Shown: positions 24,176 to 63,920 of the stretch, piece by piece | Layout: each line of letters opens with the position of its first letter | How positions within the stretch are numbered: position 1 is the first letter of the stretch | Assembly: GCA_051362555.1 (NCBI GenBank) | Contig: CM120642.1 | Location: 23,560,001-23,624,000 of the forward strand | Reading direction: 5' to 3' | Source: Lingula anatina | Lineage: Eukaryota > Animalia > Brachiopoda | Length of the DNA stretch: 64,000 nucleotides | Translations under genes and position numbers: made by a program | Notes under the pieces: model-generated | What the model was told of the DNA's origin: nothing | Seen by the model: the letters and a program-made list of their open reading frames with translations, nothing else | Database searches by the model: none

Positions 24176-26490
24176 ATGGATACAATTCTGTTAATGAACT
24201 ATCACATTCAAAATTTGATTAAGAAATTGAGCATTGCTCAAGAGATAGTCCATGAGAATAAAGAGCTGGCAAAGAAGAGAATGAAAACAGAAAAGACAGA
24301 AAAGCTAAAGATGTTAAATATCAGATTGGAGAACGTGTATTTGTTTACAAACCAGCTGTTCCGAAAGGATGCACCAAAAAGTTAGCAAGACTTTATCATG
24401 GTCCATTCACTATCATAGATATGCCGACACCTGTTAATGTGAAATTAAGCAGAGTATCAGGTAATCATGTAGTGTAACATTTTTATAATGTTAGAGTAGT
24501 TCAATTTAGTCTGTTACGCTTAGCTATAAACACAGTGTAAAGTTAATGCTAATTTTATTATATTTAATTATGCAATTGTATCTTTGATTATTGATGTGCA
24601 TGCGTCATCGGTTTATGGTGGATCAAACACATCATTCAGGACCCACTTCAGGAATTTATGAGGTCATTATTAGTGCGCACACCTGGGCCCTTGATTAACT
24701 CTCAAAATTAGAATTTGCTCAAATTGAACATTTATTGACGATAATACAAGCGTTGTCGTCCAGGATCAAATGACTTATTGATCACCTATCTGCCATGTCC
24801 AGAAACGATGAAGTGGTCATAAAATCGGCAGATACGGGGAGCACACCTGCATTGGTCTTCATAATAGAATCAAACTCTATGTAAAATTAATTTGTTGATT
24901 TGATCTCAGAGAAGTGAGACGTTCGATTATTGTAGGGGAATATTCCTCGGCCGCGTTTGCGTTTAAGTCAGAAGTTAAGACTTGGTAACTCAGTCGCATT
25001 CGCGCTGCGGGTATTCCCCAGTCATTGATTAACTTTGATTTATTAAATTCATTAGAACTGCAAAGTGCCGTATTTATTTTCTTGACTTTCCGATTCGCTG
25101 AGTTTCTAAGCCCGTACCGCAACACTCGTACGGCCGGGCCTGGCACCATACATTGCGTTATCCAACAAGTAAAGTCACGAACTTTACAACGACTAGGCAT
25201 CACATGTCCAGCTGCTGAGCTGGGGTGCTTTAACCCAATTTAAGTGCAAATGGTCATCAAAAGCTAATCAATCAATTGTCAAAGATACGCGTTTTTGGGA
25301 GTAGAAGCAGTTCCACCCATTAGAGAAAAAATCCAACAATTTTACAAGTCAAAACAGATCATCTAAGTTTATCTTTATGAAAATCGAATAGGCAACGACA
25401 CCAAGATACCAAGGTAACAATATTTTATATTTTAATGCAATTTTAAAGGTATATTTTAATGATAGAAAACTGTAACACCCCCGGTGCTTTGTTCTCTGAG
25501 CATGCCACATGGTTCAAACTGAACTTGCTTCTACAGATAAATTTTATGTACATTTCTACCTGATTTTCTTCTTATAAAGTGCACATGATTAACATCAAAG
25601 GTTATATAATTATTACTTGTCACAGCATTTTATAGAAAAGTTAGTAAAAAAGCAGTTTAATTAGTTTATCAGGATTTTTAAGTAGTGTCATATCCATTTT
25701 TTTTTTAGATTGAAAGTTATTGTAAGTAGAATTAAATGTCTTTTTGCTAAAGAACATATCTATTCTATAGGACAACTTAGAGAGATTACGTGCACTAGGG
25801 CAAAAGGGGCCAAAGTTGTGAGTTAAACTGTATTTATTGGTTTATTTAGATTAGAGACATGTTATTAATATTCCATTCTTTATGTTACAAATATTATATT
25901 GGAATTAATTTCTTATTTTTTGATATATTTCTATGTCACTACATTCATAGTGTGTTAAATGATTCAATTTAATTAATTGAGCAGTGTCATGTTACAAGTT
26001 GAGTGTTATTGTTTACTTTGAGCCACTAGTAAGTGTAGGCTGTGTGTACAAATTGTCACATATAATATTCTCCAGTCAGTCTGAGTACAGTCAAGACGTG
26101 TTAGTTTAAGACAATGTAACAAGGTCAGAAAATGGTTAGATGTTTTATTTTTCTTTGATTTTTGTTTAATTATTTTATTATTTCAGATTCACGGTAATTT
26201 GGCATTGAAATACTTCGGTATTCTGGTACTACCTATCAGTGAATAAAGGTTCCATCATCTAGTTACATCATCTTGTTACGTCATCATCTCGACAAATGCA
26301 TGCAAACTCTACATGTAGTGAAAAATTTGTCCATGTAAATCGATTGAAAATGGGGTAAGACAGGAAAATGAGACTGCCAGATACTGAAATTCCTGATTTA
26401 AATTATGCTGACAGTACAGAACTTCAAGAAGAAGATTTTCCAAGTGAAAGTTTTATCACTGAGCCAGGAAATGAAGAGCAACAATAAAAT
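24176..26490 (+). mobile_element. Gypsy-type integrase C-terminal remnant, split by a solo LTR
   Basis: Frameshifted translation ..AQEIVHENKELAKKRMK..YQIGERVFVYKPAVPKGCTKKLARLYHGPFTI.. resumes after 26318 with FVHVNRLK (GPF/Y module). Confidence 0.8.
24473..26313 (+). mobile_element. Solo LTR, about 1.84 kb
   Basis: TGT...ACA termini, 5-bp TSD TGTAG (24468-72 and 26314-18), and AATAAA about 70 bp before the 3' end. The interrupted reading frame continues on both sides. Confidence 0.85.
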
Positions 26491-26520
26491 GAGACTGGAG
26501 GACAGGTGGATAAAGTTAAT

Positions 26521-28815
26521 AAGAGTAGGCTGTAAGGTGCTGCCCCCTATTGCTGATAGGAAGTATTAAGTAGCATATGGTTTTCTTCTGATTGTTTTTT
26601 AATGAGATTCCTTGAGGGGGTTTAAATTTCCTAGCCAGAGAGCACAGCACATTCCTTTGTTCAGTTCTTGTGAAGAAGAAAACATGTTTTGATAATCCCA
26701 GAAGTTGTTCAAGCCTAGTGTATACTGTTGTGTTTTTATCAGTTTCAATTTAAAGTGTGCACTAAATGTGCGTCTCATTGTCACCTTTGATTAACACAGC
26801 TTTTCGCACTGGAATGACCAGAGCAACGTGCCCCTCTAGTCAGCTTTAATTAACGAACGCCTTTTTCCGAGCGCCCTTTTGGTCAAGGGAGCTCCGAGCG
26901 CCTTTTGCACTGGACTGCCCTAAGCAGGAGCCCTTTCTGTCAGTTCTAATTAAGGAGTGCCTCTTCCGGGATCCGGGATCCCCAGAACTTTTTTTTTTTG
27001 AGCTCCTCCGGCCCGTGCCGCTGGAGCACTATAAAAGGGTTGTGGTTCATAGCAAAAGAACATGGCATTAGAGATTAGAGATTGCATTAGAGATTGGATT
27101 AGATTAGATTAGATTGGAGTACAGAGCGTAGCACAGAACAGAGTAGAGATTAGTGATTTGAACACATGTAGAGATGATCAAGATAACCGAAAGTTGTGAC
27201 TTTTGAACTTAACTTAGTTGAATAAACTTCATAGTTTTATTTTCAACTGGTGGCAGCGTTTATTTTGAACTTCATCAGTCGCGTTCTGAAGAGGAAGTAA
27301 GAACTTGACAATACCTTTTGAGAACTCTGTCCAACCAGGAATTTAAAACCCTTGTTGATTGAGGAGTATTATATAACTGGTAAAGACAGAGAGGAGAATA
27401 AACATCATATATTATTCCAACAAGACTTTTCTAACACTAGGGGTGTTATAGTTTAAAATTCCTAGAGTGACTTAACTCCCTGAAGTTTAACATTCCTATG
27501 AGATCCTAGTAGTATGGATATCCTGAAAGAAGAGGACGGAATTGTCCTAGTAAGTCCACCCATGTCAGATGCAAGTAAAGAACTGGACACTTCATCTGAA
27601 CATCAAAACATAGAATTAAAGAAACAGCAGCTGATTATGGAGTTTGAGGAAAAGAAGGCCCTGCCTGAGATGGAGAGACAGCCTCAGCAGCTGCGGCTTA
27701 TGAAGGAGAAGATACTAAACTGACGCGGGGCATTTGTGAAATTTATTTTGAGTGAGTGAATGCAACGATTAAGAAGTACAACAAAATTGCACGTCAGACG
27801 CGCTGATAACTGAATATGGATGAAGATATTATACTTAATATTATGATAGAGGGTGAACACACTTGGACCCAGGAGGGGATCGAACAACCAAATACTTTAT
27901 ACCACCTTTCAATTAAACAATTGAACACTGGACTTTCCAATTTTAAGGAATCTCAATTTATAATGTATTTTGGAAAATTATTGAGAGAAAATATTTTGAC
28001 TGAAATGGGTAAAGATTGGATTATTGACAATTTGAATGACTGCAAAGATACCTGGCAAATTTCTAAAAAGCCGAACATTTAATCAAACTATTAAGTTCTG
28101 CCCTGTATTGCCAATGGCTAAAAAGAGTAGGCTGTAAGGTGCTGCCCCCTATTGCTGATAGAGAGTATTAAGTAGCATATGATTTTCCTCTGATTGTTTT
28201 TTAATGAGATTCCTTGAAGGGATTTAAATTTTCCTAGCCAGAGAGCACAGCACATTCCTTTGTTCAGTTCTTGTGAAGAAGAAAACATGTTTTGATAACC
28301 CCAGAAGTTGTTCAAGCCTAGTGTATACCTTTTGAGAACACTGTCTAACCAGAGATTATAAACCATCATTGATTGACAAGTATTATGTAACTGGTAAAGA
28401 CAGAGAGGAGAATAAACATATATTATTCCAACAAGACTTTATTCCTTTTCTAACACTAGGGGTGTTATAGTTTAAAATTCCTGGAGTGACTTAAATCCCC
28501 GATGTTTAATATTCCTGTGAGATCCTAGTAATATGGATATCCTGAAAGAAGAGGACGGAATTGTCCTAGGAAGTCCACCCATGTCAGATGCAAGTAAAGA
28601 ATTGGACGCTTTATCTGAACAACAAAACAGAATTAAAGATACATCAGCTGATTATGGAGTTTGAGGAAAAGAAGGCCCTGCCTGATATGGGGAGACAGCG
28701 TCAGCAGCTGCGGCTTATAAAGGAGAAGATACTAAACTGATGCGGGGCATTTGTGGAATTTATTTTGAGTGAGTGAATGCAACGATTAAGAAGTACAACA
28801 AAATTGCACATCAGG
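26521..28815 (+). repeat. Local direct duplication of about 0.7 kb (26521-27797 including the LTR, and 28123-28815)
   Basis: Both copies run aagagtaggctgtaaggtgctg ... aagtacaacaaaattgcac and contain the MDILKEEDGIVL coiled-coil-like fragment. Confidence 0.9.
26726..27310 (+). mobile_element. Solo LTR, 585 bp, Gypsy-like
   Basis: TGT...ACA termini, 4-bp TSD ATAC, TATAAAA at about 27030 and AATAAA at 27221. The empty site gtgtataccttttgag is present in the duplicate at about 28321. Confidence 0.9.
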
Positions 28816-30718
28816 CACCCCAAGGATGACAGATGTGATTCTTTTTCAAGTCGTAGAAAATGACGTGAGGGGATCGCCATTTGACCCACCAAAGATGATG
28901 GACCACCAAAGAAGATTACCACACTGAACCTTCTGATTCTGGAGCATTTTCCCTGCATTACAATCTTCTGGGGCCAGCTTCTCTACAGGTCCTCCCCCAG
29001 TTGTGGGTACCTGCCAACCAGAGAGGACCAAGACAGATATAACCTAACAATAGCAAAAGTGAACAATGCCATGAAAGAAACCTTTTAAGGCCAAGACAGG
29101 GTTCACTTTTTAGGACATGTAGGGGCCACCTTCAACTGGTCAAAAAACCTGCTACCAGATGGAGTTCACATGAATGCAACAGGCACAAACATGCTCTGGC
29201 AATCATTCAGGGGTGCTGTGCTCATCGCAAGCAAGAGTAAGTCAGTCTAATCAATTCAGTACAGGGGCATACATTTAGCTTTGTATAACATAGAATTTTC
29301 AGCTAGTATGAGAGCAGCCTGCTCCAAACTAAGTAGCACCTAAGTCACCTTTATCCCATGATCACCCAAATAAGGGATCTTAAAAGGTTTACAGATAAAA
29401 ACACATAACCTGAAAATTTCTCAACGCAAAATGAACGGAACGAGGAAGGTCAGATCACAATGATCCTTGCCCCTTCTCCCAAGAAATCTGATTTAACCTC
29501 CCTCCAGTGGTGCCAAGCCTGGCAAATCTTTTCGGCCATCTATCTACAAAAATTTCCTGATCATCAAGCCATCCCCCTTTTTGGTTTATGCCCACAGGGT
29601 TATCGCGATGTTCCCTAACAAAGCAGCAAATTGGAGGGTTTACGATGAGAGGTTCCGGCTAAAACGAGCCAGCGAAGGCATCACGTGGGAGGAGGAGGAC
29701 TCCGTAGTTTATGGACTCTCTCTGGGAACCCCAAAATTGGACAATATTCGTCCTCCTGAGGTGTGTAAAAACTTCAACAGAAGAAAGTGTTCATTTACGT
29801 GTTGCAGATATCAGCACAAATGCTATCTATGCAACAAAGATCACCCCCTTTCTATATGCCCCTCAGCCTTACCTAGGCATTTTACTTCCCCTTACCCCAG
29901 AAAACCCTTCACTAACAGCCATTACACCCTTTCTAGCCACCAAAAGTCCCAAAATTTCCGACCCAAGTTCCACAAAAAATCCATGTAACCCAATTCACAA
30001 AATTATCAAAATTAATGAGCCCTCATTACCTTTGGACCAAAACATTGTTACCCCCCTAAACCACACTGCATTGGAAAACCTTTTAGAGGATTCCCATATC
30101 ACAAAATTTTTAACTTATGGCTTCAGAGAAGGATTTATCATCCCTTACCAAGGCGAGTTACCTCACTCTCCCCCACAAAAATCTAAAAAACATGAACATT
30201 CCGAGAAACTAAAGGAAAAGATTGATTCAGAAATTCAGGCCAGACGAATAGGCCCCTTTCCCACCCCCCCCTTCCACTTTTTTACCATATCCCTAGTTTC
30301 TGTAGTTCTGAAGAAGACCCCTGGAAAATTCAGTTTTATTCACAATCTCTCTTATCCTAAACATCACTCGGTCAATGATGGCACTGATGATAAATTTGCC
30401 TCAGTGTCCTACGCCACTGTTTCAGATGTCATACAACTCACAAAATCCCTAGGAAAAAAAACTTTTGGCTAAGACTGACATCCTAAATGCATTCAGAATC
30501 TTACGAATGGGGCTACGTTCAATTTACCAAAAGTTTGAAATTTTTAGTTCGGCGATTGAGTGGATTGCCAAAGAAAAATTTGACATACCTGACATGCCAA
30601 AGAAAAATTTGACATACCTGACATCCTACACTTGCTGGATGATTTCCTTATACTGGCTCCAACTAAATAGGAATGCCAAGACCTACTTGACCATTTTAAA
30701 ATTCTGTGCAAAATCATA
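28815..30718 (+). mobile_element. Ngaro/DIRS-group retrotransposon fragment: SGNH hydrolase, gag-like ORF and overlapping RT (degenerate)
   Basis: SGNH: ENDVRGSP..FWGQL..LLPDGVHMN. Gag: WCQAWQIFSAIY..WRVYDERFR..CKNFNRRKC..CRYQHKCYLC..H. RT in an overlapping frame: GFREGF..GPFPTPPF..KKTPGKF..IHNLSYP..SVNDG..AKTDILNAFR..HLLDDF. Confidence 0.85.
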
Positions 30719-31135
30719 GAGAATGGCCTTAGTTTGAATGATTGTCTGGAAACTGGTCCGTCATTGATTCCCAACTTAGTGGAAGTGCTGTTGAGGTTTA
30801 GAAGGTGGTTAGTGGCCTTAACTGTAGACATTTCCAAGGCATTTCTTCAGATTGCTCTGAAGGAAGAGGACAAAGGTGTACACAGATTTATGTGGAGTGT
30901 GGATGGTAGGAAAAGTGTCATGAGGTTTAATAGGGTAACTTTTGGTGTGAAGTCGAGCCCTTTCCTTTTGAGTGCTACCATCGGTCACCATTTGAGTACA
31001 TGTGAGCCCTCTGATGTGGTGAGACAGCTCAAAGAAAACCTTTATGTGGATGATTGGTTGTCTGGGGCCGATTCTGCCCAAGAGGCCAGTGACATGTACA
31101 GTGGATCGGTACGTATTATGGATAAAACCAATGTG
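30719..31135 (+). mobile_element. BEL/Pao retrotransposon reverse transcriptase fragment
   Basis: SLNDCLETGPSL..VLLRFR..DISKAFLQI..HRFMW..FNRVTFGVKSSPFLL..NLYVDD. Confidence 0.9.
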
Positions 31136-32031
31136 AAAGCCAGAACTACCGCTCGGCAAGCGACGGTGGGACGGGGACACAACAGAACTGACTGATTTCA
31201 CTGCAACGAAGCTAGCCAGAATGGAAGATGGAATAAACAAGAAATTGGCGCAGGTGACACAAGAGGAGAACCAATCACCTGCGAGCGAACTTCAGGGAGC
31301 TAAAGGAAAAGCTCGATCAAAACACGTGCCAGACCCAGGCCTATCAAAAACAACTGGCCGAGCACCTGAAGATGGATATCCGACATGTCATCTCGAGTGC
31401 AGATGCCATGAGCAGGACCAGGCTGTTGTCCATAGAATTCATTTCCGCCCTAGAAACACTGGTCAAGGAAGCCAGAAGATTTTAAAGTGAGAACTCACTG
31501 ACGTTTTAGATTCAAAGCCGATGTTGGGCGTGGATATCCTTATGGTCAAAGGACTAGCCACCAAAATGACTACCGTCATAGTAGAAGATGGAACCCACTC
31601 CATCCCTGTAAACTTGTGGCGTGATGCCTCATCTTCTCCAGTCAAGGTCGGCAGTTCTGCAGAATTCCCTGGCAGTATAAATTTAAATTCATTTGAAAAA
31701 CGCCTTGTATGCCACATTAACAATCCAAAAGATGTGGAGGTAAAAACTGTTTGTTTTTTTTTTGTAATCCATACTAAACAGTCTTTATATGTTGAGGAAG
31801 TTATTTCAATTAAACAATTCCACATCACTGACATGTATATCCATCCATTAAAAATTAATACTATATCAATTGAATTAAACCATGCAAAGATGCCAATACC
31901 TACTTCACATTACTAGGTAGTCATGTTCTAAAATCTGTTTAAAAGTGCACCAAAATTCAGTTCATTTCACACGAAAAATTGCCCTCCTTGCAACTTACAT
32001 TGTTCTCATCATTAATATTTTCATGCAATTT

Positions 32032-33620
32032 CAGGGCTAGACACTAACTTTTATGAGCACCTGTCCTTCGGACAGGTGGTCACAAATTTGACCTGTCCGA
32101 TTTTCAAACCAACCTGTCCAACAAAACCAATATTTTTTTTTCTATTCATACCCAGAACTTTGTAAATGTGTAGTCATACATTTAATGTATCTATTATCAA
32201 AATACTCAATCAAATGAGCTGGGAAAATGCACCTTAAAGTGAATTTATTTTCAGGTAAAAAGTTGTTTTTTCATACTTGTGAACCTCTGAAGATTAAATC
32301 TTGCATATAAGGCTGTATTCCCAGAGCTTTTAGATCGATCTATCCCCGCGGGGAGTCTCACTAGATTACTGTCAGATAATCTGGCTTAAATGTCCTTCCC
32401 ACCTACTACAAGCTGTACGGGGGAAATTAACTTTCGTGTCCGCCTGGCTGACAGCTATTTTGCGTGAACCCCTAGGGAGTTAGGTTGATCTAAAGTAGAT
32501 TGATCTAATCTTTGGAAATGGGGTCTAAGTCTGATTTAACATAGTTCCAATCAGGGCTTCTCCTAGGATTTGGGGTACAGGGTCTACTAATTGTAAATCT
32601 GCAATTTGATAACAGATTACATGAAGTTTAACCACAGCTAAAAAAAAAAAAAATACTCTGAGCGGGAAGTGGGGAGGGGGTACTGTTAAATTAATTTTAT
32701 TAAAATATTCAAAATTAATAATATTTGAATATAGTTCAATGAAAAGTTAAATAATATTCATTTTATAATACTTATATCTTTGTTAACAATTTAACTTCTT
32801 TTCTGGATTATCATGTGTTTGATTTTTTTAAATATATGAATTAAATAAAATCAATATAAAATGTTCCCCTTCTTTTTATTTAAATTCTCATATTTGTTAT
32901 TACTAATTTCTTCCTTACATCAATATCATACTGGTACATGACAGCAATGTTAATTTATCATATTCCAGCTGAGCACTATTTTTTAACTGTAAATAACAAA
33001 GGTGATACTAAAATAATTAAAGAAAACATCATACAAAATTTCAGGTTATATTTTGGCAAATAAACAACATTTCAACAAGATCTTCAGTCCAAAAGATTTC
33101 ACTTTCTATAGTGAGTAGATAGCATACAACGTATTTGATTGACAGGCAGTATGTTGCCTTGACAACGAACTAGATATAGCCAGTTCATCCAGTTCAATCT
33201 GGCTTTGTACCCAGGCAGCACAGTACTTGTGTAGTTTCTGTTTTTTGAACGGTCTTTATTACTAGAGCACGTAGATTTTGAACTAAATAAATATAAAGTA
33301 AAGAACCTGATATGTGAATAAATTTTGTCTGATGAAGTTCTGGAGGGTGTTCTCTTTCATAATTTGGCGGTAAGTTTACTCAGACTTCGTTTTGTGACTG
33401 CATGTGTTTTGTGCCGAAAGTAGGTCACTTTTCAATGCCGTCTAGGAAGGGAATAAAAGACGTTAGTATGCAACAAAATATATCTTTTTTAAAGACTTTT
33501 GCTCCAAATTTCTCACAAAGCATGACCTGTCCGTCGGACAGCCAACCCTGCAACTTCACCTGTCCGAACTGATTTTTTACCTGTCCCGGACAGGCGGACA
33601 GGCGCTAATGTCGAGCCCTG
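32032..33620. mobile_element. Non-autonomous hAT (hAT5-like) element in an OB-gene intron
   Basis: TIRs CAGGGCTAGACACTA / TAATGTCGAGCCCTG, subterminal cctgtcc/ggacagg motifs and a 5-bp AATTT duplication. Confidence 0.85.
32311..32525. mobile_element. Nested Harbinger-type MITE
   Basis: TAA flanks and imperfect inverted ends (ggctgtattccca..tagatcgatcta / tagattgatcta..tggaaatggggtc). Confidence 0.6.
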
Positions 33621-38779: not shown

Positions 38780-38830
<51 letters not shown>

Positions 38831-45460: not shown

Positions 45461-45512
<52 letters not shown>

Positions 45513-49560: not shown

Positions 49561-49786
49561 TGAGATGTACTCCAGAGCTAAAATAATAATCAACTGTGAG
49601 GAAGATGAAACCACAATCACAGTTGATGCCATAAACAAAAAAGGTTTACTATGATGTTAAGCCAGGTTTTACTAGACCACTGGTCCAATACTAAAACCTC
49701 CTTTATGAAATGCAGGCAATCCCAAAACCTGGTGTAAACTCACTTTAGACCAGGTTTAACTTTAAACCTCCTTTAAGAAATCGGCC

Positions 49787-51443: not shown

Positions 51444-51665
51444 TTTGGAGATAGTTGGGGAAATGTGGGGTATCTGGAACAAGAGTATTAAGTTTTGGAT
51501 GATGAGAAGGATAACTAGCAGAACTGACTCAGTGTAGGCCCGGCTGTTTTAAACATGTTGTGCTATGGACTTGGTTCCAGAACCAAATCATGCGTAAAGG
51601 CACTACAATTAGTAAGAATCTGAAGTTCATTCATTAACAGATGTCCATGGTAGTAGTTTGTGGCT

Positions 51666-52251: not shown

Positions 52252-52552
52252 GTATCTCATCTGTTGAGAGGTTCTGCACAGCATCAGCAATGAAACAAGC
52301 TGCAGTTTTGACAAATTTTTATCTGTATACGTTGATCACAATGGACATTGCATAGGAAGTGTGCAGTAACATTTATTTTGGTAATGTGTGAATAGTTATA
52401 AACAAATACCCCGTTTACACTGCAGTCATTTACAAGAACTTTTCAGCTTCAACTGGCTAATTGTCACTACATTAATTTGCAGTATTACTAATACATTGGG
52501 CATGCATAAAGCTTATTTATTGAATATTAAGTACTCCTTTCCTTTTATCCAG

Positions 52553-53061
52553 AAACACAACATCAACAAGGACGACTAAAGCTGCAGAGTACAAATTAAA
52601 AACCTAAAACAAAAATACAGAAAACATAAATACGCACTTAGGAAGAGTGGTGCGGGAGTGATGGGGGAAGAGTACTTCCCCTATTTTGAGGCCCTTGATG
52701 TGGTCCTGGGATGCCGGGCTTCATCAGAGCCTCTTGTCCTCTTGGACATGTCCTGCCATTGTAAGTGATCTCTTGAATTCCACTTATTGATTGCAATCAT
52801 GTTATTATTATTATTATTGTGTATTATTTATATATAAATAATTTTATCCTAAAGTTTTACTGTTCATTAATAAGAATAAAATGTTTTGTTTAAAAAAAGT
52901 GAAATTAGAACAAAAAACTTCTTTAAAGAAATAATTATTTTCTAGCTAAGGAAAGTGATGAAGAAATTGACAGTGAGAGCCAGGAAAGCCAGCAGAGTCT
53001 GATGAGGAAACCCCAAGAGATGAAGATAAAAAGCCTAAAGTGAAAAAACCATTCAAGAATA
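52553..53061 (+). pseudogene. Myb/SANT-like (trihelix) exons, as in the Harbinger accessory protein
   Basis: CRVQIKNLKQKYRKHK..RKSGAG..FPYFEALDVVLGCR with AG/GT borders and an internal stop. An acidic exon follows at about 52945. Confidence 0.7.
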
Positions 53062-53399
53062 GTAAGCAGCCTTTTATTCTCCCAATATTGAGAAGGGGGT
53101 GAAATTGTTTTGTTTCAAGTGACATTTCATGCTATGATCAAAACAAAGCAATACAAAACCAACTTCAGTGTCCTTCATATTATTTGTCCACATGTCAGCA
53201 ACAGTACGAAGGAGTAATGATACTTTAAATTGTAAATTTTTAGACATTATTTCAACACTAAAATGAAACCTTGGATAATAAGGTAATAATTTTTTTAATG
53301 TTTCTAAAAACCCCCACCTTGTCTTATATTTTTGCAGCTGCAAACAAGAAAAGAAAGGAGTAAGAGGCAACTGACCCAACAAAAACCCTGTTTACATAT

Positions 53400-54655
53400 T
53401 AGTTAAGAAGAACATTCGTGCACTGATGATGACATGAATGAAACTGAGGAAAATGTAACTGAACACAAACCAGGAGTTGAAGATAGTGTAGATGCAGAAA
53501 GTGAAGATGACATTGTTGGCATTAGCATATGACAGCTGTTTGGAACCTTTGGATCTTTGTGCTGATGTACTTAGTGAGCTTGAAAACCATATATATTCAG
53601 TAGTACCAGCTGAAGAGAACAAACCACATTCTATTTTGCATACGCCACATGATGAAGCAATTGCTTTCCCTGCATTATTTCCTCACAGATGTGGTCATTT
53701 TAATGATGAAAGAGAAACAAAGATAACAAGAGCTAAATAGATCAATGCAAGATTGTTCAACACAGATTTGCTAAAAACTCGGGATACATATTCTACTGTC
53801 ACGCTGTGACTGAGCTAGCTAACATGCTCTCAGGAATAAGTATTCAAACACGCAAAGGTGTGGCTTCTAAAAATGGACTAAACATAATGGCCGGTATGCT
53901 AGCAGATCATGAACAAGTGTACAACATGCTGAAATCTGATCAAGGGTTTTTTCTCATATGCAATCAGTTCGAAGATCACCAGAATATTAGAGAAAGACAA
54001 TGAATGATTTGTTTGCAAAGATTTGTCAAATCGGAACACCAACTTGGTTTTGTGTGTTCAGTGCAGCAGAACTCTCAAGGTGGCCACAGGTGATTGACAC
54101 CGTTGCCAGACAAAATGGAAAGCCTCTTGATTTTGAAACAATCAGTTTCAATGAAAAAGCAGAAATCATAAGGTCTAATTATGTAACAACCATCAGAATG
54201 TGGTATTCTCGAGTTCAACATTTCCTGAGATTCTTGCAAAGTCCAGCACATCCTCTTGGAGTCACTGAAGATTACTTTATCAGAACTGAATTTCAGATGT
54301 GTGGCAGTCCCCACGTTCATTGTTTGTTCTGGGGAGAAAATGCTCCAAAACTTGATACCAACACTAATGAGGAAGTTTGCAATTTCACTGACCAGTAAAT
54401 ATATCTTGTCAATTGCCAGATGAAGAGCAAAACCCAGAGTTATATGAACTAGTTAGTGCTGTGCAGACTCATAGCAAGATGCACTCAAAATCATGCAAGA
54501 AGGGCAAGAAGATATGTCGTTTCAACTTTCCTAAACCTCTAGATTCTAGAACATCAATTGTCAGACCAAAGTTACAGGATGAAAGCACAACAGAACAAAC
54601 ATAAGACAAGGTCAATCCAGCCACGGTGAAAAAATATCTTGCAAGGATGAACTTA
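53400..54655 (+). mobile_element. Helentron/Helitron Rep (HUH) domain fragment, degenerate
   Basis: PAEENKP..EAIAFPALFP..NARLFN..DLFAKICQIGTPTWFCVFSAAE..YFIRTEFQMCGSPHVHCLFW..HSKSCKK..CRFNFPKP. Confidence 0.9.
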
Positions 54656-54818
54656 CTGTACTGTACTGTTTCTGTAGGAAACAGTGGCAGCTGCGCTTTA
54701 TGATCCAGTGTGATCACTGTGGTGAGTGGTACCATGGCTCCTGTGTAAACATAACACCTACAGAAGCTCTGGACATCCTCACATACAAGTGTGCGGATTG
54801 TAAGGATCAAGGCCAGTA
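54656..54818 (+). pseudogene. PHD finger fragment
   Basis: [33 protein letters not shown] (C4HC3). Confidence 0.85.
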
Positions 54819-54861
54819 GAAACCTCTGTCGAGATATTTGAAAAGATAGTAACACTGTACC

Positions 54862-56846
54862 TTTATCTTTCCAGATAACATGGACAACATATTGACATGG
54901 CCCAGGAGGCAGTTTTGCTTGGAGAGGTCCAGGGGGACATTGGGGCTGAGGAACCTAGCATTCCAGCCGCTGCAGCTACCCCCAGTGTAACACCAGCAAT
55001 AGCAACAGGGAGTACGGCCCGTAGTGCTCTCAATGAGACTCCTGAGGCGGCCAGGTATGGTTCAGTAAGTTGGGCAGAGCAGGTGGAGCTGAGTGAAAGG
55101 CCCACCAGACGAACGAGGCGTGGTAGTCTACTGCCGCCATGGCAGCGACTCCCTCTGATGCGACCATGCCCTCTCCCAACCTTCAGGTAACGGTAGGTAC
55201 CACTAACAAAGTAGTGGAGCGGCGGGTGGCAGTACCACCACCTCCCCGCCACATCGCCATAACTGCGGTAGGTATGCGGGCTCCCTCCCTTCATGGATGT
55301 CCGGTCCCTGACTGTAGGGGCCGAGAAACAGTGGCCCATGCATTTGAGGCCCATTTGCCGCACATTTTCCTGGTCAGTCTCTCCGGTCGGGATGTGGTAA
55401 GTAGGCGGACAGGAGCCCTGAAATTCCTCATCTCCTCACTGATGGGGGCCCCAAGCCACCCTGGCTCAGTTGGTGCGTTATGGTGAGGCCCTGGGGTTTC
55501 CAGAAGGGAATGAAGAGGTCAGTTCTCAGTTGGCACTGGCCATGAAAGAGTTTGGTGCCCTGTTCGGCCAATCTGAGGGGCCCTTCCAGGTGTTGGCCCA
55601 CAACAATGGCCCGCAAGCCCTCCTTCGTTGGAGGTTTCTATTGAGGGTAGCTGCCCTCCTGGAGAAGAGTCAGCTTCTCCAATGGCAAGACCTTTTTCCC
55701 CTCTCGGAGGAAGAGCGGGTTGCCCATCTGCCCCGCCTCCCTGAGGGCTTTGATGCTCACTTTCACCTTGACCGGACCTCACTTTGGTTGGGGTTAAAGG
55801 GCCTGTCCCTCCAACAAGTTGTCTAGGGCAAGGACAAGGATTCCCTGTATCCGTTCACCCTCACGGGGGGGACGGCCATGTTCTGTGATCCAGACACATG
55901 GCCGGACCCCATAGAGTTGCCCGCTCTCAGAAGAATGGGGTTAGTGCTGGCGGGGGGGCTCCACCCCAAGAAGGTGGCCAGCAGTACGCAATTTGCCCAT
56001 CTGGAGACTCTCCTTTCCTCCCCAGATGTGTCTGCTGTGGGAGAGGTGGGGATCAATCACACAGCTCCCCCAGGCAAGTGGGTCGGCCAACGCCTCCTGC
56101 TAGAAAAGTCTCTCCAATTGTTGACCCCTGCCAAGTTTCTAGTTCTGCACTGCAGAGGTCTGCCAGGAGGTGAGGACAACGCACTGTTCTCCCTCCTGAT
56201 GCACCTGCAGTGCATCCCCATAAGTGCCACTCAGCTTATACACCTGCACCACTTCCAGGGGTCTATGGGGGTCTTGCGGCAGTGGATTCAGTCCTACCCT
56301 AACACCTATTTTGGGGTAGGGTCCCGCGCACTCTCTCTCCCTGGAAGAAGAATGGCGGTGGCGGAGCTGCACAGGAGTAGGGTCTTGCTGGGCTCAGTGC
56401 CCAGCAGGGTCTTGGTGCGAGGGTCTTGGTGCGGTGATTGCACCCATCTGGGGTTGCACCTGGCAGGAGGTGCTTGCCATCACGGCCAGGAACGCCAGGC
56501 TTCTATATGTGGACGGGCTCCCGCCCGAGTCGACGGGGCAGTAGTGTTTTGAAAGTGACCCCGGCTGAGAAGTGGTGCCACTCAGTGGGGGCTTGCCCAG
56601 TGGCCAGGGTAGGGTGCACCATGGCATGCTGGGCTCAGTGCCCAGCAGGCTGAAGACTAGGACCACCTTTATTTAGAAGAGGGGGCAGTGTAGTGACGCC
56701 GACCCCGGAACCGGTAGTGGAGTCGGACCACATGCGCAGCGGGCGCCCCCGCTCTCGACGTCAGCGTCACACCATAGAAGTAGAGAAAACCTTCAGGTAG
56801 GCATATCTTCCCCGATCGTGTGTTTAAGTTGCACATCGGCACATTA
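54862..56846 (+). mobile_element. 3' end of an LTR retrotransposon: TatD-family nuclease ORF (degenerate), polypurine tract and truncated 3' LTR
   Basis: GC-rich ORF pieces contain DAHFHLD, FCDP, GLHP, VGEVG, VLHCR and HLHHF. They are preceded by a splice acceptor tttatctttccag and followed by agaagagggggcag|TGTAGTG at 56675-56695. Confidence 0.75.
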
Positions 56847-58120
56847 TTGAAATAAAATTCATAGTGGATCCTGCCGCAAGGAGCCTTTATCTTAGGCTTA
56901 TGTCTTATAGCAGTCCAATAAATATTAAACAAAATTAATTGTAGATTGCTGATGCCACATCACAGGAAGAATACCAGGAGTTAACAGATGACCCCTTAGT
57001 GGATCTAGCAGCCTGCACTGCCTTGGGACTGTCACTGAAGGACAGAGATGCTTTAGTAACAGACTTGGTGCACTTCTTTGTCATTGGAAGGCATGGCCTT
57101 GCCATTAGCCAGTAAGTAAAGAATGATGTGACTAAATCCATTGCCTGCTACAATCAAAGTTGAAAAAAACCCCCAGTTATATGAACTAGTTAGTGCTGTG
57201 CAGACTCATAGCAAGATGCACTCAAAATCATGCAAGAAGGGCAAGAAGATATGTCGTTTCAACTTTCCTAAACCTCTAGAATCTAGAACATCAATTGTCA
57301 GACCCAAGTTACAGGATGAAAACACAACAGAACAGACACAAGACAAGGTCAATCCAGCCACGGTGAAAAAATATCTTGCAAGGATGAACTTATTAACTTA
57401 TTAAAGCTTGAAATAAAATTCATAGTGGATCCTGCAGCAAGGAGCCTTTATCTTAGTCTTATGTCTTATAGCAGTCCAATAAATATTAAACAAAATTAAT
57501 TGTAGATTGCTGATGCCACATCACAGGAAGAATACCAGGAGTTAACAGATGACCCCCTAGTGGATCTAGCAGGCTGCACTGCCTTGGGACTGTCACTGAA
57601 GGACAGAGATGCTTTAGTAACAGACTTGGTGCACTTCTTTGACATTGGTAGGCATGGCCTTGCCATTAGCCAGTAAGTAAAGAATGTTGTGACTAAATCC
57701 ATTGCCTGCTACCAGTAATTCAGTTATGTGATAAAATGTCCCAATTAGAAACTGATGGGTCACATTTACATAACTAAAAATTGGTATCTGGTATTGAATT
57801 AATTTGAAGTTTCAAAATATTTGTCAAGTGATTGAAGTTTAACCCTAAGTTAGCATGGATTGATTCACACTTTTTGAGCAATGTTATACAAGAGAGAGAA
57901 AATGAAATCTCATCTTTAGTCTACTTTAACTTTTCTAGGTTTGAGAAAGGTCTTAAGACACTTGGAGTTTTAGATGCAATCCGACAGTATCCAAATGTGA
58001 TGAGGAAGGCTTTCGTATATGAGCCCGAGGTACTCACAACATCGTTAGTAGAAAGTCTATCTGACATCACATGGTCACCAGAAGGCACCAACAAAAGAAA
58101 TGCAGAAGAGCAAATCCTGA
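56847..58120 (+). pseudogene. G2E3-like HECT ligase exons (56945-57111, duplicate 57506-57672, then 57939 to about 58120) with an interposed Helentron piece (about 57165-57395)
   Basis: IADATSQEEY..LKDRDALVTDLVHFFVIGRHGLAISQ|FEKGLKTLGVLDAIRQYP splices in phase. The interposed piece is nearly identical to 54425-54655. Confidence 0.75.
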
Positions 58121-58250
58121 TGACATATAGGCCCTGGCTCAGCACATGATAAAACCAGTTGAAAGGACACTAAGAGAAGTGAGAGACATGTTTGAAAGAG
58201 GCTGTACCAGGGCTTTATTTACAGGGACAGTTACAAGGGTATGACTAATT
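58115..58250 (+). pseudogene. Paralogous copy of OB-gene exon 34725-34869
   Basis: ALAQHMIKPVERTLREVRDMFERGCTRALFTGTVTR|gtatgactaatt matches ALAQQMVKPMERTVREVKDMFQRGCTRALFSGTVTK|gtatgactaatt. Confidence 0.85.
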
Positions 58251-58568
58251 CTACAACCCTCATTTGCATATGAGATCACGTGAGATGCACAAAGCTTCCC
58301 AGAAGTCAATGTACAGTTTACTTCTGGAAGTCTATACACGCGATCTTAGAGCTGCAAAAAATTTAGTCTGATTTATAAACTGGACAATTTTAAGATAGAG
58401 AGAGATGACAAGCAACTTGTTTCCATCTCTGTACTGTGTAAAATCTACTTTGAGCGTTAGCTTAGCCTCACACACGCCATTTCAATTTAGCGTTGGTGGT
58501 TGAACACCAACTGAACAAAGGAACCGTAAGTAGCAGCAACTGATGTGGTCAGTACTATTATAGGCGAG

Positions 58569-59241
58569 ATGGACAAATCGCGCTCAAGAAGCGAGCACCA
58601 GAAAAATGAGAAAAATCAACAAACTCGAGAGGGCGATCGGCAGTAAATCTGCCAGTGGGAAAAAAGAAAGCGGCAGAAAGCCAAGAGAGAAAGATCACCA
58701 AATAACAGCTACAGCGAAAAAAGGGACGACCACCAGATCCCAGGACAGGGCCAGCTCCGATCCCACAGAAACAAAGCCCAAAGAGGTCATATACTCGCTT
58801 AGGGAGCTTGAGAGCTCATGTGTCGCCTCAGTTGAAGTTGTTGATGGCGGTGACGTGATAACCATAGAGGGTCCCATAACTATGCAGGGGCTGCAGGCTC
58901 AGGTAGACACGCTGACAAATGCTATGTCAAAAATTTTGCCAGTGGTGCAGAGGATCAGTGCCACTATGGATGCACATGGTTCGTAGGGCGAGGATGGCAA
59001 CATAGATGAGAAGGAACATTTTATCGATGAGTCACATGATCACTCAGCGGCAAGAAATGACGCCACAGCTGGCGATGACGATTTGCTGGCCCTGCTGACA
59101 CAATCTCTTAAAGCCAAAGAAGCATGCGGCCCAGCTGTGGATGCTGAATTAGCAGAAAAAATTAATACTATGATGTCGACTGGTATATCTGACCATCGAC
59201 TCACAGAAGTGAAAGAGAAATACTTGTGACCGGACAACTGC
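58569..59241 (+). mobile_element. DIRS-type ORF1 (gag-like) fragment
   Basis: A low-complexity N-terminus followed by GPAVDAELAEKINTMM..EVKEKYL.PDNC, a pattern typical of animal DIRS ORF1. It is cut by a hAT end. Confidence 0.6.
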
Positions 59242-61335
59242 TGGGCTCACGCTAGCCGCTCGCAACGTTCGCTATAGCGAGTCGCATTTCAGAAATGTGA
59301 AAACAAAATTTTACTGGTTCGCAAATTTTGCGAAACTGTTTAAACAAAAAAAATGTTAGTCACCTTTCAGTGCGTTTGCTTTGATTTTACCTTGAAAAAA
59401 AAAATAGAAGTCACCACGCTGCTGTTTACGTCGTTGCCTACGTCCAAGTGAAAGTAAAAATATAGATGCCTCCATTTCGACTTCTGTTTCATGCAGAGAG
59501 ACTAATTGAAAACGAGGCAACAATCTAGAGACGGTGCTCCGGATTGTGTGATGTCATGTGTGTCTGGGTTTAGCCTTGTAGGTGTAAAAATAAACTAAAA
59601 ATGATTTTAAAAATAACTAACAAATAAATGTATGTATAATAATTATCCTCCGCCCATGTGTTTAACGGGATTAGGCAACCGAATTTTCAGTGCGGGATAG
59701 CCCGCACTAGCAGTCAGCACATGGTGCTCAACATGACGCAATGAACGATGTGTTATTTTTGAAAAGGTAAGGTGATTTTTTTATCTGATACGTAAAACAG
59801 AATTGTATTGCATGATAAATTTAAGCTTCAGAATGTCAAATGAAAAGTGAAAAAATTATTTTTCAGTAGTCGAAGCGTATTTTGCTGTAAGTTAGTTATT
59901 TTCAACAGTGAAAGGTTTACAATGGTCCACGTATTTCCGTCTTCTGATCTGTTCTTGTCTTCGGGTGACTTATTGTCGTCTGTCTTGTATTAATGAAAAT
60001 TTTGGTAAATTTATTTTGCTTTAACAGTTTGTTCCCAAAGAAAAATTTTCTTCTAAAAATGCTTACACGACCACGTGATGATTGATGCCGTGTGCACCAA
60101 GCAATTAATCATGTTTAGGGACATAAGTGCGTTCTTAATTTTTTTTTTGTGTGGGGGACATAATGATTAAATCGATGAAGTATTACCATGATTGGAAAGT
60201 AAATAAAGCCATGTGTACAATTTTGTTAAATAGTGTTTATTTTGCAATTTCAGTTGCCATTTGTGATTGTGATGAATTTTGCATTGTCATGTCATCAAGC
60301 AGTAAGGATTGCTTGTAATAAGGCTAAGCCAAGTAAGCAGTCCAAAACTGAATCGTTTTTCAACTTTGATTCACCAGTTCAGACAACCTCAGTGTCAGCT
60401 TTACCTACCAACACAGGAGACTCTGTATCAGTAACTTCCCGTAACTTGGCTGCTGTCACCACCAGTGAACAAACCGTCTTGGCAAATACTCAAACAAGAC
60501 ATAGTTTCAAAAGTAGTTGGCTTCTGCAATTTAAGTGGTTGGTTAATGAAAACAGTGAGCTTAAATGCAAGGTGTGTGTTGCTGCAAAAAAAGATAATGT
60601 TATGACCAAAGGAAAGCCAGATGATTCTGCTAAGAAAGATGATTTTGTAAAGCATGAGAAGTCTGCAGACCATAGATCAGCTCTTCGACTACCTTTCATG
60701 CAAAAAGGCATGAAGGAGGCAACAGTGAAGGCATACGATTCTGTGAAGGCAGCCATTGTTGCTCAGATGGCAACAGTATTAATGCAGGCCCAAGAAGCAA
60801 TTCCATCTGTAAAAAAAACATAGTCTGCTGAGACTTCAGATTTTCAATGTAAGAATAAGTTGAATTCCAAGTTAATTTGTATTTGTAAATTGACCATAGA
60901 CTGCTAGACTTCCATATTTATTAGATAATTGTTGATTAAATGTTATTTTAATTGATAAGTACAAGTTACTTTTCTAGATAATTTAGGATTATTGTGTGGT
61001 CTATTGTTATTCTCTGATGTAGCAATTTGGCATTATCAAACAAAATTATGACAACTCATTTATAAAACAATATTTTTTAAATTAACTTAGATTTTAACTA
61101 TAAATTCTCTACATGGTGTCAACAGCCTAAAGCATCTTTATTCTGGTGATGGTGGTTCTTATCAACACAATGACTCAATCAATGACTTCTACTCCATTAT
61201 GGCTGAAATGCTGACAGAAGATCTACATGCAGATAGAATGAGTAGTCCATATCCATTCTATGGAATTGAAGTTGATGAGGCCACTGATGTAGGCAGCAAG
61301 TCTATCATTGTGGTGTTTTTAAGATTTGTTGAACC
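59242..61335 (+). mobile_element. hAT (ZNF862-like) element, 5' part with TTF zinc finger and first catalytic Asp
   Basis: The end ctgggctcacgcta resembles a CAGGGCT TIR. Translation gives FKSSWLLQFKWL..CKVC..KHEKSADH, then an intron, then FYGIEVDEATDV..VVFLRFV. Confidence 0.8.
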
Positions 61336-63270
61336 ACCAGCAGTCCCAAAAATCTACTGGTCCTGCCATCACAACATTTCTATATAAAGACACACGCGTA
61401 CATGAACGAACACTTCAATCGCAGAACACAGGCAGCGTTAGACCGATCACTACTAGTCAAAGGATTGTGCATGCCTCATATTTCCACCACCATGAACGTC
61501 ATGTTAGCGGGCCATACTCTCATTAAGAGATTAGAATTCGAGTCCCCACACAACCTCAACCTCGATCCAGCCATTTTTAATATCCATTTTTATGGCAAAA
61601 GTGGGGCTCAGCTGGACCACTTCCTGTCCAGCAATGACTTTCTTGAAACAACGAAGCACATGGACCTCATCATTTTCCAAGTGGGTGGCAACGACGTAAG
61701 GGGCTCCCCATTTGATGTTCAGAGGATACTGGACAAGACTACACTCTTGACCCTGAGAATACAGGAAGTCAACCCCAAAGTGACAGTTTTCTGGGGACAG
61801 CTACATTTTAGATTGGCACTAAGCTGTGGATACTTTCCTACAAAGGCAGACGAGGACAGGTAGAACAATAAGCTGCTTTATCATACGTAGGCTATTTACC
61901 ATGACTTAAGCTGTATCGTGTGGCAGCACCAATCAAGCACAACCTCATCATTACGATAATCACTGGCCATGGCAGTAGGCCGCTTTGCCAAACGTAGGCT
62001 ATGTACAATGACTTGGGCTACAGTGCGTGGCCGCCCTTTGTCTAATGCAATCACATCAGTATCATCTACAACGGGACATAACGAGCCATGTTATTTTCAC
62101 ACGCTACTCACAGTGACTTAAGCTACAGCATGTAGCTGCATACAGTATTATTTTAATGAACCATGACATTGAGTCGCTCACCTTACATCAGTGTTGTTCT
62201 CTATAACATGTAATCAGGGGCGCAACACCCCCTCTCATTGCGAGCATGTCAATCAACAAAAATTTTGGTCCTTTTGCTTCCTTTTCTTCTTCTCTGAGCT
62301 GGCAGGGCTCTCTATCACTCGTATCTCTGCCATACGGAGTCTATACTTCCTTTCTCTCATTTTAGAGCTACAGCATGGAACAACCTCCAGGCCTTCCAAC
62401 ACTGGGGGAAGCTATCTACTGGGCCATGACATCGGGCCCCAGCACCCCATACAACACGTACCTGGCCCCTACAATGAACACGGGACACAGTACAACGGTG
62501 AATGCAATACCTTGCCCCAGCACCACGTGATCTCACCCCCAGCAGCAGGACCCAGCACCTCGGTGATCGCGACATCCATCACCACCAGCGTGACCCCACC
62601 CCAGCAGCAAGACCCACTGCCACGATAGCCACTACACCAGCTTCAATTCAACAAATCCAGGCCACAAAAAGGACGACAATGAGCCAACAACAGCCTCGCC
62701 CTCTCCCCCAACCCCACTCCTCTCCATCAGGTTCTCAAGGGCACCCCTACTTCCAACACATGGAAAGTGTCTTAGCTCCCCCCAACCCAAGCCCAGCAAA
62801 TAGGCTTCTGCGGGACAAACCTCCATCACTCCTATCCCTACCATGCCCTCCAAACAAACCCACCTCCCTCCTCCACTCGGCTAATCCAGGACAACGGAAA
62901 CCCCCTTCCCTCCTCTCCCTTCACATACCAAGGCCAACCTCCCTCTCAGCCTTTGTTTAACCCAGAACAAACAAACGAAAACCTGCACTACAACTTGCCC
63001 ATGCTCCACACATCCGTCCCCCATCCCTCTTCACAATCCCATGCTCCCCCAAATTTGCCCCATCAAAACATGCCCCCCCCCTCCCCCAAATCACACTTTT
63101 AGCCACACCTTTTCGCAGGAGCCCAGACATGGACATCAGGTGACAGGTAAGAAAATTCCATCAACTACTATTGACCACCATATCAACACAAAATTGAGAA
63201 ACAAAATTTGGATGAATTCATATACTTACGAGAACTCCTTCCCCCAGACGCAAACATTCCTAGCAAAGAA
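61336..63270 (+). mobile_element. Second Ngaro-group fragment: SGNH hydrolase ORF followed by a Pro/Thr-rich gag N-terminus
   Basis: VMLAGHT..GKSGA..QVGGNDVRGSPFD..FWGQL..SCGY, homologous to 28.8-29.2 kb, and IDHHINTKLRNKIW. Confidence 0.75.
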
Positions 63271-63920
63271 CCAGAAACATGACTGGACTCTGGAATTTGC
63301 TGTCCATTCTCACAGGGATGAAATCCCAGAATTGCTTCAACTTGCCCAGATAGCTTTTACCCTTCCTTTGCATACTGAAGATGCACTGAATGTGCGGCGG
63401 AGGAAAAAGATATTACTTCATTAAGAAATGAAATCTCTTCTCAGTAGAGTGCTCATTAAGACTGTTTAATAAGTAGCATGTGAGGATAATTTCATTAATA
63501 TAACATTTTCTCAGTTTTGAGTAATCATGGTTTTCAGTTTTTAGAGATCTAGATTGTTTACCTCTTGTTGATGGTTTCATCAAATAAAAACCAATTACTG
63601 AAGAGTATGTACATGTTTTCTGATCATTTTGTTTTCTCATTTAGTCTTCAAATAAGTACAATAAAAAACTTGGCATTGTAATGATTTTATTGAAAAAGAC
63701 AGTTACTAAATAAAAGTCTTTACTAAATAAGTATATTAACATTAAGTTTAGCTGCAAAACCTTATCATATCATTCCCAAAAATATTGATACAGATATTTC
63801 AATTATATGAGTCATGTTTAAAAATGACCCATTAATTTCAAGCAATGGCCCCTTGATATGCAAAATGGCCCATTAAGGGTGGCCCAGGAGGGGTCATTGT
63901 CCCATGGGTGGTTTGAGCCT
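63270..63920 (+). mobile_element. hAT C-terminal dimerisation-domain remnant and possible 3' end
   Basis: IPELLQLAQIAFTLPLHT and a possible degenerate TIR gtttgagcct at about 63911-63920. Confidence 0.55.

What the first reader, a model, noticed from the sequence alone, without database searches (positions are those of the whole stretch)
24176..63920. 40-kb single-strand-polarised archive of transposon fragments: candidate unistrand (flamenco-like) piRNA cluster
Seen in sequence: about 20 recognisable pieces from at least seven superfamilies all lie on the + strand. They are Gypsy integrase, two solo LTRs, Ngaro x2, BEL RT, an RTE LINE tail, hAT x3, a Harbinger-type Myb/SANT piece, Helentron Rep x2, DIRS gag, the TatD-LTR end, and OB, HECT and PHD cargo. 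I found no recognisable minus-strand coding fragment and no intact element. Established knowledge: random insertion gives mixed orientations, whereas Drosophila flamenco-type clusters hold co-oriented TE fragments antisense to one long precursor. Inference: a minus-strand transcript entering from the right would supply antisense piRNAs against many active families, DNA transposons and their cargo genes included. An alternative is a giant Helitron-like composite that captured pieces in one orientation.
Basis: partly seen in the sequence, partly recalled or inferred. Interest (0 to 1): 0.88.

Follow-up and report, generated by a model that had tools for sequence, protein, structure and literature searches.

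The report
One-way transposon archive, likely piRNA source
In an animal genome, about 40 kb next to an ordinary gene is packed with broken pieces of many unrelated jumping genes whose coding parts all point one way, and faint RNA reads likely come from the opposite strand, so it likely supplies small silencing RNAs (piRNAs), although these were not tested.

Summary
In 24.1-64 kb, 5 of 123 plus-strand ORFs pass Pfam cut-offs for transposon or cargo domains, against 0 of 138 and 0 of 91 minus-strand ORFs. One more piece matches a hAT transposase. Counted as independent pieces the bias is 6 of 6 (strict, p=0.03) to 18 of 18 (inclusive, partly recalled motifs). It is not total: two non-coding repeat copies are inverted. 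In the left 14.7 kb, two stranded libraries give about 22 reads on one strand against about 3 in low-copy bins: a minus-strand, antisense RNA if the usual library convention holds, which was not calibrated. An unstranded library was also skewed (73%). DNA depth argues against a multi-copy composite element. Best reading: a unistrand piRNA source locus (0.6). It works like flamenco but is not a flam-like member, whose bias is Gypsy-only. No small-RNA data could be tested. The scan noted the same layout before on other DNA (25 notes).

The parts
24176..64000 (-). Whole archive; inferred direction of the precursor transcript is minus (promoter would lie right of the window)
   Evidence: Piece orientation; RNA only for 24110-38780; direction depends on an uncalibrated library convention
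24176..24470 (+). Gypsy-type integrase C-terminal piece, first half
   Evidence: SH3_Tf2-1 E 0.011, below cut-off; translation
24473..25188 (+). Solo LTR (TG..CA ends) inside the integrase tail; no target-site duplication left
   Evidence: Ends; a DNA contig of depth 117 matches 24536-25190 and diverges beyond; orientation inferred from poly(A)-signal layout
26290..28814 (+). Integrase tail second half, polypurine tract, LTR, primer-site-like motif, gag start; then a partly deleted second copy (28119-28814)
   Evidence: Sequence; duplicates 96% and 91% identical; motif names recalled
28815..30720 (+). Ngaro-like element: SGNH hydrolase piece, gag-like piece, RT 5' part
   Evidence: GDSL E 0.032; 55% aa identity to the second SGNH piece; SGNH in Ngaro from PMC9210276 passages; gag and RT labels recalled
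30721..31135 (+). Reverse transcriptase piece (BEL/Pao type by recalled motif), fused directly to the Ngaro-like RT
   Evidence: RVT_1 E 3.8e-8; a contig of another DNA run spans the joint (30267-31103, depth 51.5)
31136..31489 (+). Degenerate LINE ORF2 tail (recalled motif)
   Evidence: Coding score +15.4 vs -1.2; no family hit
31490..34135 (+). OB-fold-like gene, lineage A: two exons (31490-31739, 33899-34135); its intron holds a MITE (32032-33620) with a nested very-high-copy MITE
   Evidence: 44% and 35% aa identity to lineage B; GT/AG at matching positions on +; MITE ends and 5-bp flanking duplication; depth 2e3-2.7e5
34221..34682 (-). Inverted partial copy of the non-coding repeat unit of the 39-48 kb block (counter-example to full polarity)
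   Evidence: 85.6% identity to 45879-46351 on the opposite strand
34725..35788 (+). OB-fold-like gene, lineage B: three exons with introns
   Evidence: OB fold E 0.008; splice sites
37790..39110 (+). Intron-bearing coding piece (OB-like, lineage C; label recalled)
   Evidence: Splice sites 38697 and 38924; coding score
38560..38647 (+). 88-bp LINE 3' tail with (TGA)n end and a 13-bp target-site duplication, inserted into the exon; the exon copy at 49561-49645 lacks it
   Evidence: DNA depth near 4000 at 38581
39195..48066 (.). Non-coding block of HINE-like elements with 161-bp and 340-450-bp tandem units; three end in a palindrome (about 41680, 43085, 48062); one partial copy inverted (43422-43691)
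   Evidence: HINE layout from PMC7492417 passages
48300..48385 (+). Probable LINE 3' tail (AATAAA then short tandem tail)
   Evidence: Sequence; label inferred
48850..49645 (+). hAT transposase piece fused by a 7-bp shared word to an 85-bp copy of the lineage C exon
   Evidence: P0002 E 3.9e-44, tblastn, hAT domain; joint
49788..51443 (+). Eight tandem copies (205 bp, 96%) of a HECT-like coding piece (label recalled)
   Evidence: 80% aa identity to 57939-58114; no Pfam or PDB support
51666..52251 (.). MITE with 42-bp inverted ends; no orientation assignable
52553..52770 (+). Myb/SANT-like exon (Harbinger-type by recall)
   Evidence: Myb_DNA-bind_4 E 0.0016, below cut-off; acceptor
52946..54655 (+). 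Helitron/Helentron Rep piece with introns
   Evidence: Helitron_like_N E 9.7e-15; splice sites
54678..54815 (+). PHD-finger exon
   Evidence: PHD E 1.5e-9
54875..56846 (+). TatD-like ORF followed by a polypurine tract and the start of an LTR
   Evidence: TatD_DNase E 6.5e-13; tract and LTR start
56847..58238 (+). Mosaic of short duplicates: HECT-like exon twice, 227-bp copy of Rep, HECT-like exon fused by a 7-bp shared word to an OB exon
   Evidence: 97% duplicates; joints; splice sites
58540..59229 (+). Coding piece read as DIRS-like gag (label recalled, unconfirmed)
   Evidence: Coding score +26.6 vs -5.3; no family hit
59240..61330 (+). hAT element, left end and 5' half with introns, truncated
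   Evidence: zf-C17orf113 E 8.6e-8; splice sites and left end
61335..63300 (+). Second SGNH hydrolase piece and a Pro-rich gag-like piece (Ngaro-like)
   Evidence: GDSL E 0.0019; paralogy; the gag-like part is weakly oriented (-10.5 vs -12.2)

Best explanation
This is a 40-kb pile of broken transposon pieces whose coding parts all face +, and it is likely a unistrand piRNA source locus: a long minus-strand RNA, predicted to start right of the window, would be cut into piRNAs antisense to many transposon families. Elements land by their own transposition (shown for a LINE tail and a MITE by target-site duplications), are cut down by deletions and reshuffled by short local duplications (shown), and copies facing the transcript's sense are likely removed by selection because they give no antisense guides and can stop or splice the precursor (inferred, model from PMC10643416). 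Non-coding repeats escape part of this filter (shown by two inverted copies).
For: Strand bias; 6 of 6 (p=0.03), 11 of 11 (p=0.001), 18 of 18 (p=8e-6) by tier. Diverged paralogues that must be separate insertions are co-oriented (SGNH 55% aa, OB exons 44% and 35%). Sharp boundary against a host region without transposon domains. RNA: in the 23 of 30 bins with DNA depth under 600, X12 has about 12.6 reads with first mate on + against 1.8, X15 about 9.1 against 0.8, spread over several unrelated families and non-coding parts, about 0.1 RPKM. At 24176, 29011, 29036 and 29049 the RNA reads carry the window's letters, not those of the deeper DNA contigs (2 of 2, 4 of 4). Coding pieces are from low-copy families (depth 28-250, one LTR bin 509, against 2e3-2.7e5 for MITE and HINE bins). 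Comparable loci are in print: 402 of 457 Nematostella clusters unistrand; T. ni unistrand clusters 79.7% antisense by nucleotide; snail clusters enriched in Gypsy, hAT5, hATw, Kolobok.
Against: No small-RNA data. The library convention was not calibrated on a host gene, so 'minus strand' rests on the usual convention; if reversed, the reads could be read-through from the plus-strand TMC gene ending about 3 kb upstream. Reads are few (roughly 11 pairs). X18 looks unstranded on high-copy bins yet shows 73% first-mate-plus in the same bins (about 13.5 vs 5 reads), so small samples can skew. At 28934 and 29113, 1 of 1 read carried the other letter. No spliced joint was seen. Minus-strand AATAAA is not depleted (31 vs 18 on + in 24.1-39.1 kb; 15 vs 15 in 48.1-64 kb), which a single long precursor would prefer. 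No RNA data right of 38780. No noise floor from ordinary intergenic DNA.
Confidence: 0.6

Rival explanations
1. The stretch lies in a long intron or long non-coding RNA transcribed on the minus strand. Insertions in the transcript's sense are purged because they disturb it, and no piRNAs are made.
For: Explains the bias and the thin one-strand RNA equally. The level, about 0.1 RPKM, fits pre-mRNA.
Against: No minus-strand exon or domain in 40 kb. Intronic orientation bias is usually partial (recalled), not 18 of 18 across DNA transposons too. It does not explain why coding pieces of low-copy families are packed end to end while the 15-kb TMC gene next door has none above cut-off.
Confidence: 0.2
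2. An ordinary low-recombination transposon graveyard. Few original insertions happened to share a strand, local duplications multiplied them, and the reads are noise or come from other copies.
For: Many pieces are local duplicates. The strict tier gives only p=0.03 and the window was picked from a very large scan. The unstranded library is skewed too. Non-coding copies occur both ways.
Against: After collapsing duplicates 11 to 18 pieces remain. Paralogues at 35-55% aa identity are not local duplicates. Library-free tiling gives 28 to 6. Reads carry window letters at 4 of 6 informative places.
Confidence: 0.12
3. A giant Helitron-like or other composite element that captured pieces in one orientation and moves as a unit.
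For: Helitron Rep, HINE-like ends and intron-bearing OB, HECT-like and PHD exons are present; these cargo exons may indeed come from one element family. Some stretches have depth of about 90-190, so a few related copies exist.
Against: DNA depth is uneven from bin to bin and drops to 28-51 in five bins, and junction-spanning contigs have depth 14, 52 and 68: no uniform multi-copy block. No common termini found; Rep is internal and broken. Nested LTR, LINE and hAT insertions would have no reason to share a strand.
Confidence: 0.08

Closest known systems
Drosophila flamenco and flam-like unistrand piRNA clusters (PMC10643416; passages read)
   Same: Dense transposon fragments on one strand, opposite to an inferred single transcript; the paper found such loci de novo from strand bias alone.
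   Different: There the bias is driven exclusively by Gypsy and absent for other LTR elements; loci are 227-1085 kb and expressed in follicle cells. Here Gypsy-type pieces are a minority, and hAT, Helitron, Ngaro-like, LINE and intron-bearing cargo exons share the bias; 40 kb is seen, right end unknown.
Trichoplusia ni unistrand clusters (PMC5844692; passages read)
   Same: Antisense bias over transposons in general; precursors rarely spliced, as no joint was seen here.
   Different: Bias there is partial (57.1% of insertions, 79.7% of nucleotides) and piRNAs are measured; here coding pieces are fully polarised and piRNAs untested.
Mollusc piRNA clusters of Lymnaea stagnalis and Crassostrea gigas (PMC6128900; passages read)
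   Same: Enriched in Gypsy and DNA transposons such as hAT5, hATw and Kolobok.
   Different: The passages read give no insertion-orientation statistics; enrichment and element age could not be measured here without the genome.
Nematostella vectensis piRNA clusters (PMC5731801; passages read)
   Same: Most clusters (402 of 457) are transcribed from one strand.
   Different: Defined by small RNAs, not by fragment orientation; the passages read do not describe cluster anatomy.

Membership tests
Unistrand piRNA cluster (general) | Produces many 24-31-nt, 1U-biased, uniquely mapping piRNAs | not testable with these tools
   No small-RNA run was listed; only long RNA was laid
Unistrand piRNA cluster (general) | Transcribed from one strand | tested here: inconclusive
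   88% and 92% of bases on one strand in two stranded libraries, about 25 reads in all; unstranded library 73%; left 14.7 kb only
Unistrand piRNA cluster (general) | Transposon pieces antisense to the transcript | tested here: inconclusive
   Pieces on + shown; RNA on minus only under the usual, uncalibrated library convention
Unistrand piRNA cluster (general) | Dense in fragmented transposons with strand bias | tested here: met
Unistrand piRNA cluster (general) | Discrete promoter at one end | not testable with these tools
   Would lie beyond the window; no genome is held
flamenco / flam-like cluster | Strand bias and enrichment driven by Gypsy elements alone | tested here: not met
   Definition; here hAT, Helitron, SGNH-bearing, TatD-bearing and LINE pieces share the bias
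flamenco / flam-like cluster | Expression in ovarian somatic follicle cells | not testable with these tools
   Tissues of the RNA runs are not given
flamenco / flam-like cluster | Size of hundreds of kb | not testable with these tools
   The archive runs off the right edge of the window
Giant Helitron-like composite element | Dispersed multi-copy block with uniform copy number | tested here: not met
   Depth 28 to 509 across low-copy bins, junction contigs at 14-68; left 14.7 kb only, single-copy depth uncalibrated
Giant Helitron-like composite element | Common termini enclosing the block | tested here: inconclusive
   No terminus at the left boundary in the sequence; right end outside the window

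The most novel reading that the evidence does not exclude
The locus grows not only by trapping whole transposons but by copying exon-sized pieces from scattered low-copy elements through break repair at short shared words, in a fixed orientation: a CRISPR-like acquisition step for an animal piRNA memory that covers DNA transposons and their cargo genes. Two joints with a known parent show 7-bp shared words, and several joints carry short tandem echoes; both parents lie inside the locus, so ordinary deletion and local duplication explain them as well.
Probability: 0.1. Interest if true: 0.85.

Novelty: new member of a known kind. Interest (0 to 1): 0.45.

Why it matters
If confirmed, it shows that a one-strand piRNA source can be found from raw sequence in a non-model animal, and that its antisense rule can cover retrotransposons, DNA transposons and their cargo exons alike, unlike the Gypsy-only rule of fly flam-like clusters. 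It gives a concrete locus, polymorphic between individuals, to test how clusters gain and lose content (trap and selection against directed capture). The class itself is known, so the gain is a test case, not a new system.

Tried and rejected
No whole genome is held, so copy number, genome-wide background bias and the right boundary are open. No indexed RNA holder was listed for 1-10000 (no evidence either way). A strand control on the host genes was not obtained, so the library convention, single-copy DNA depth and noise floor stay open. Homologue searches for the Ngaro-like RT (0 of 283 candidates) and the TMC N-terminal exon (0 of 689) found nothing; the organism was not identified beyond 'animal', and a guess at one group was only used as a paper search term (nothing relevant). 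PDB sequence search gave nothing useful for the HECT-like and RT pieces. Related-locus scans of metagenome and viral contigs found no relatives. The representative-protein search and the Atlas gave no answer. A synonymous/non-synonymous frame test on six paralogue pairs cannot tell a plus frame from its minus mirror frame and was dropped as strand evidence. Counts of poly(A) and splice words per strand were not informative outside the repeat block. The 29-of-29 coding score on chosen pieces is circular and was replaced by unbiased tiling. Rfam 0 matches, tRNA 0. No earlier scan note on this genome or on the Rep sequence. Paper searches listed no description of a pan-superfamily fully polarised cluster, but they cover an open-access library only, I saw most hits as listings, and I read no supplements. 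PMC5340914 (passages) did not bear on the question.
Full report
Setting. The window is animal DNA of about 36% GC. The left part holds two ordinary plus-strand genes, a CDK9-like kinase (to 1706) and a TMC channel gene (about 6.3-21.2 kb); these are the only Pfam hits above cut-off among 143 ORFs there (the name CDK9 is recalled, Pfam says protein kinase). After a tandem-repeat element and A/AT runs (21.4-24.1 kb) the sequence changes into abutting transposon pieces that run to the right edge. No whole genome is held and the organism was not identified.

Is the strand bias real? Yes for coding pieces. Of 123 plus-strand ORFs of 50 aa or more, 5 pass Pfam cut-offs for transposon or cargo domains and 4 more have weak transposon-type hits. 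Of 138 minus-strand ORFs none passes and 5 have weak hits; 0 of 91 shorter minus ORFs hit at E 0.01. Weak hits are within the noise seen on the host side, so I used them only together with other marks. A hAT piece is confirmed through homologue P0002. Paralogous pieces too diverged to be local duplicates are co-oriented: two SGNH pieces at 55% aa identity and OB-like exons at 44% and 35%, with GT and AG at matching positions on +. A library-free tiling gave 28 plus and 6 minus calls among 194 tiles, shuffled tiles 3.3 and 1.6; none of the 6 is a credible minus-strand gene piece. Counted as independent pieces: 6 of 6 with profile or homologue support (p=0.03; Rep and PHD may be one element), 11 of 11 adding weak profiles with structural marks (p=0.001), 18 of 18 adding pieces named from recalled motifs (p=8e-6). 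The window was selected from a large scan, so the strict tier alone would not be enough.

Limits of the bias. A 9-kb block (39.2-48.1 kb) is non-coding tandem repeat of the HINE type (layout from PMC7492417, passages), and two partial copies are inverted. Two MITEs have no orientation. The polarity is thus a property of coding pieces, LTRs and LINE tails, not of all repeats.

How it was built. Shown: an 88-bp LINE tail sits in an exon between 13-bp duplications, and the second copy of that exon lacks it; a MITE with a 5-bp flanking duplication sits in an intron; a solo LTR splits an integrase tail. The pieces keep their introns, so they arrived as DNA, not as spliced RNA. Short pieces were duplicated locally (97% identical pairs, an 8-copy array), and two joints with a known parent share a 7-bp word. 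In DNA run X2 a contig of depth 15.5 skips 24260-26474, so deletions likely still segregate, and a contig spans the Ngaro-like/RT fusion at 30720, so that joint is not an assembly artefact. Inferred: insertion, then deletion and local duplication, then selection on orientation.

Copy number. In X2 the coding and LTR bins have depth 28-250 (one bin 509), the MITE and HINE bins 2e3-2.7e5. Depth changes from family to family and junction contigs have depth 14, 52 and 68. That is not a block moving as a unit. Single-copy depth was not calibrated, and only 24110-38780 was examined.

RNA. Three RNA runs of the same species label were laid on 24110-38780 (6-25% of each run was read). On high-copy repeats X12 and X15 are strongly asymmetric (0.66 vs 28.6; 1.07 vs 20.8), so stranded; X18 is near even. 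I dropped the 7 of 30 bins with DNA depth above 600, whose reads come from elsewhere. In the other 23, X12 has 1784 bases with first mate on + and 255 on -, X15 1210 and 103; bins leaning + against - are 7 to 3 and 7 to 1. Reads are spread over integrase tail, LTR, gag, SGNH and OB pieces, and carry the window's letters at 4 of 6 places where they cover a difference from the deeper DNA contigs. Under the usual convention this is a faint (about 0.1 RPKM) minus-strand RNA, antisense to every coding piece. Against: about 25 reads in all; X18 is also skewed (2024 vs 750 bases); the convention was not calibrated on a host gene, and if reversed the reads could be TMC read-through; no splice joint; minus-strand AATAAA is not depleted.

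Mechanism and rivals. Most likely (0.6) a unistrand piRNA source: long minus-strand precursor, antisense piRNAs, selection against sense-facing copies as modelled in PMC10643416 (passages). Rivals: intron or long non-coding RNA with purifying selection and no piRNAs (0.2); graveyard with chance and duplication (0.12); composite mobile element (0.08). Only small-RNA data separate the first two.

Comparison with what is known. It works like flamenco but fails one defining feature of flam-like clusters, the Gypsy-only bias (PMC10643416, passages), so it is not filed there. Unistrand clusters are common in Nematostella (PMC5731801, passages) and T. ni, where the antisense bias is partial (PMC5844692, passages), and snail clusters are rich in hAT and other DNA transposons (PMC6128900, passages). 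SGNH hydrolase is a Ngaro feature in amphibians (PMC9210276, passages). Membership of the general class is not established, because piRNAs were not testable. The scan's notes hold 25 findings with the same words in other genomes; I saw 8, unchecked. They show that the layout recurs and add no support.

Verdict. Real, well-polarised transposon archive; likely a new member of a known kind; interest 0.45. The boldest open reading, oriented capture of exon-sized pieces by break repair, has about 0.1.

Noticed in passing
window 28815-30000 and 61335-63300: In both Ngaro-like stretches the SGNH piece lies upstream of the gag-like piece, whereas PMC9210276 places SGNH after the recombinase at the 3' end. 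X2 contigs join 29235 to 29506 at depth 107, so the order also exists in other copies: tandem or circle-junction copies, or a family with another gene order.
   Followed up: partly
window 54875-56846: A GC-rich element end in which a TatD-like nuclease ORF precedes the polypurine tract and LTR. No relative in viral contigs; no paper search was made for it.
   Followed up: partly
window 31490-39110, 49561-49645, 58115-58238: Three diverged lineages of an intron-rich, low-copy OB-fold-like gene of unknown family, joined to HECT-like exons; an X2 contig links 25979 to 38605 (depth 95), so 25.2-26.3 kb likely belongs to the same family.
   Followed up: partly
window 24260-26474: A contig of DNA run X2 (depth 15.5) skips 2.2 kb including the solo LTR: likely a deletion allele.
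   Followed up: no
window 26249-26290, 54655-54670, 57392-57408: Short tandem echoes of neighbouring sequence at joints between unrelated pieces, as left by end-joining repair (recalled).
   Followed up: partly
window 21246-23120: HINE-like element with a 146-bp array and a terminal palindrome between the TMC 3' end and the archive, followed by long A and AT runs; the host gene and the inferred precursor would converge here.
   Followed up: no
window 32310-32600: Extremely high-copy MITE (DNA depth 2.7e5 in X2) nested in a second MITE inside an intron.
   Followed up: no
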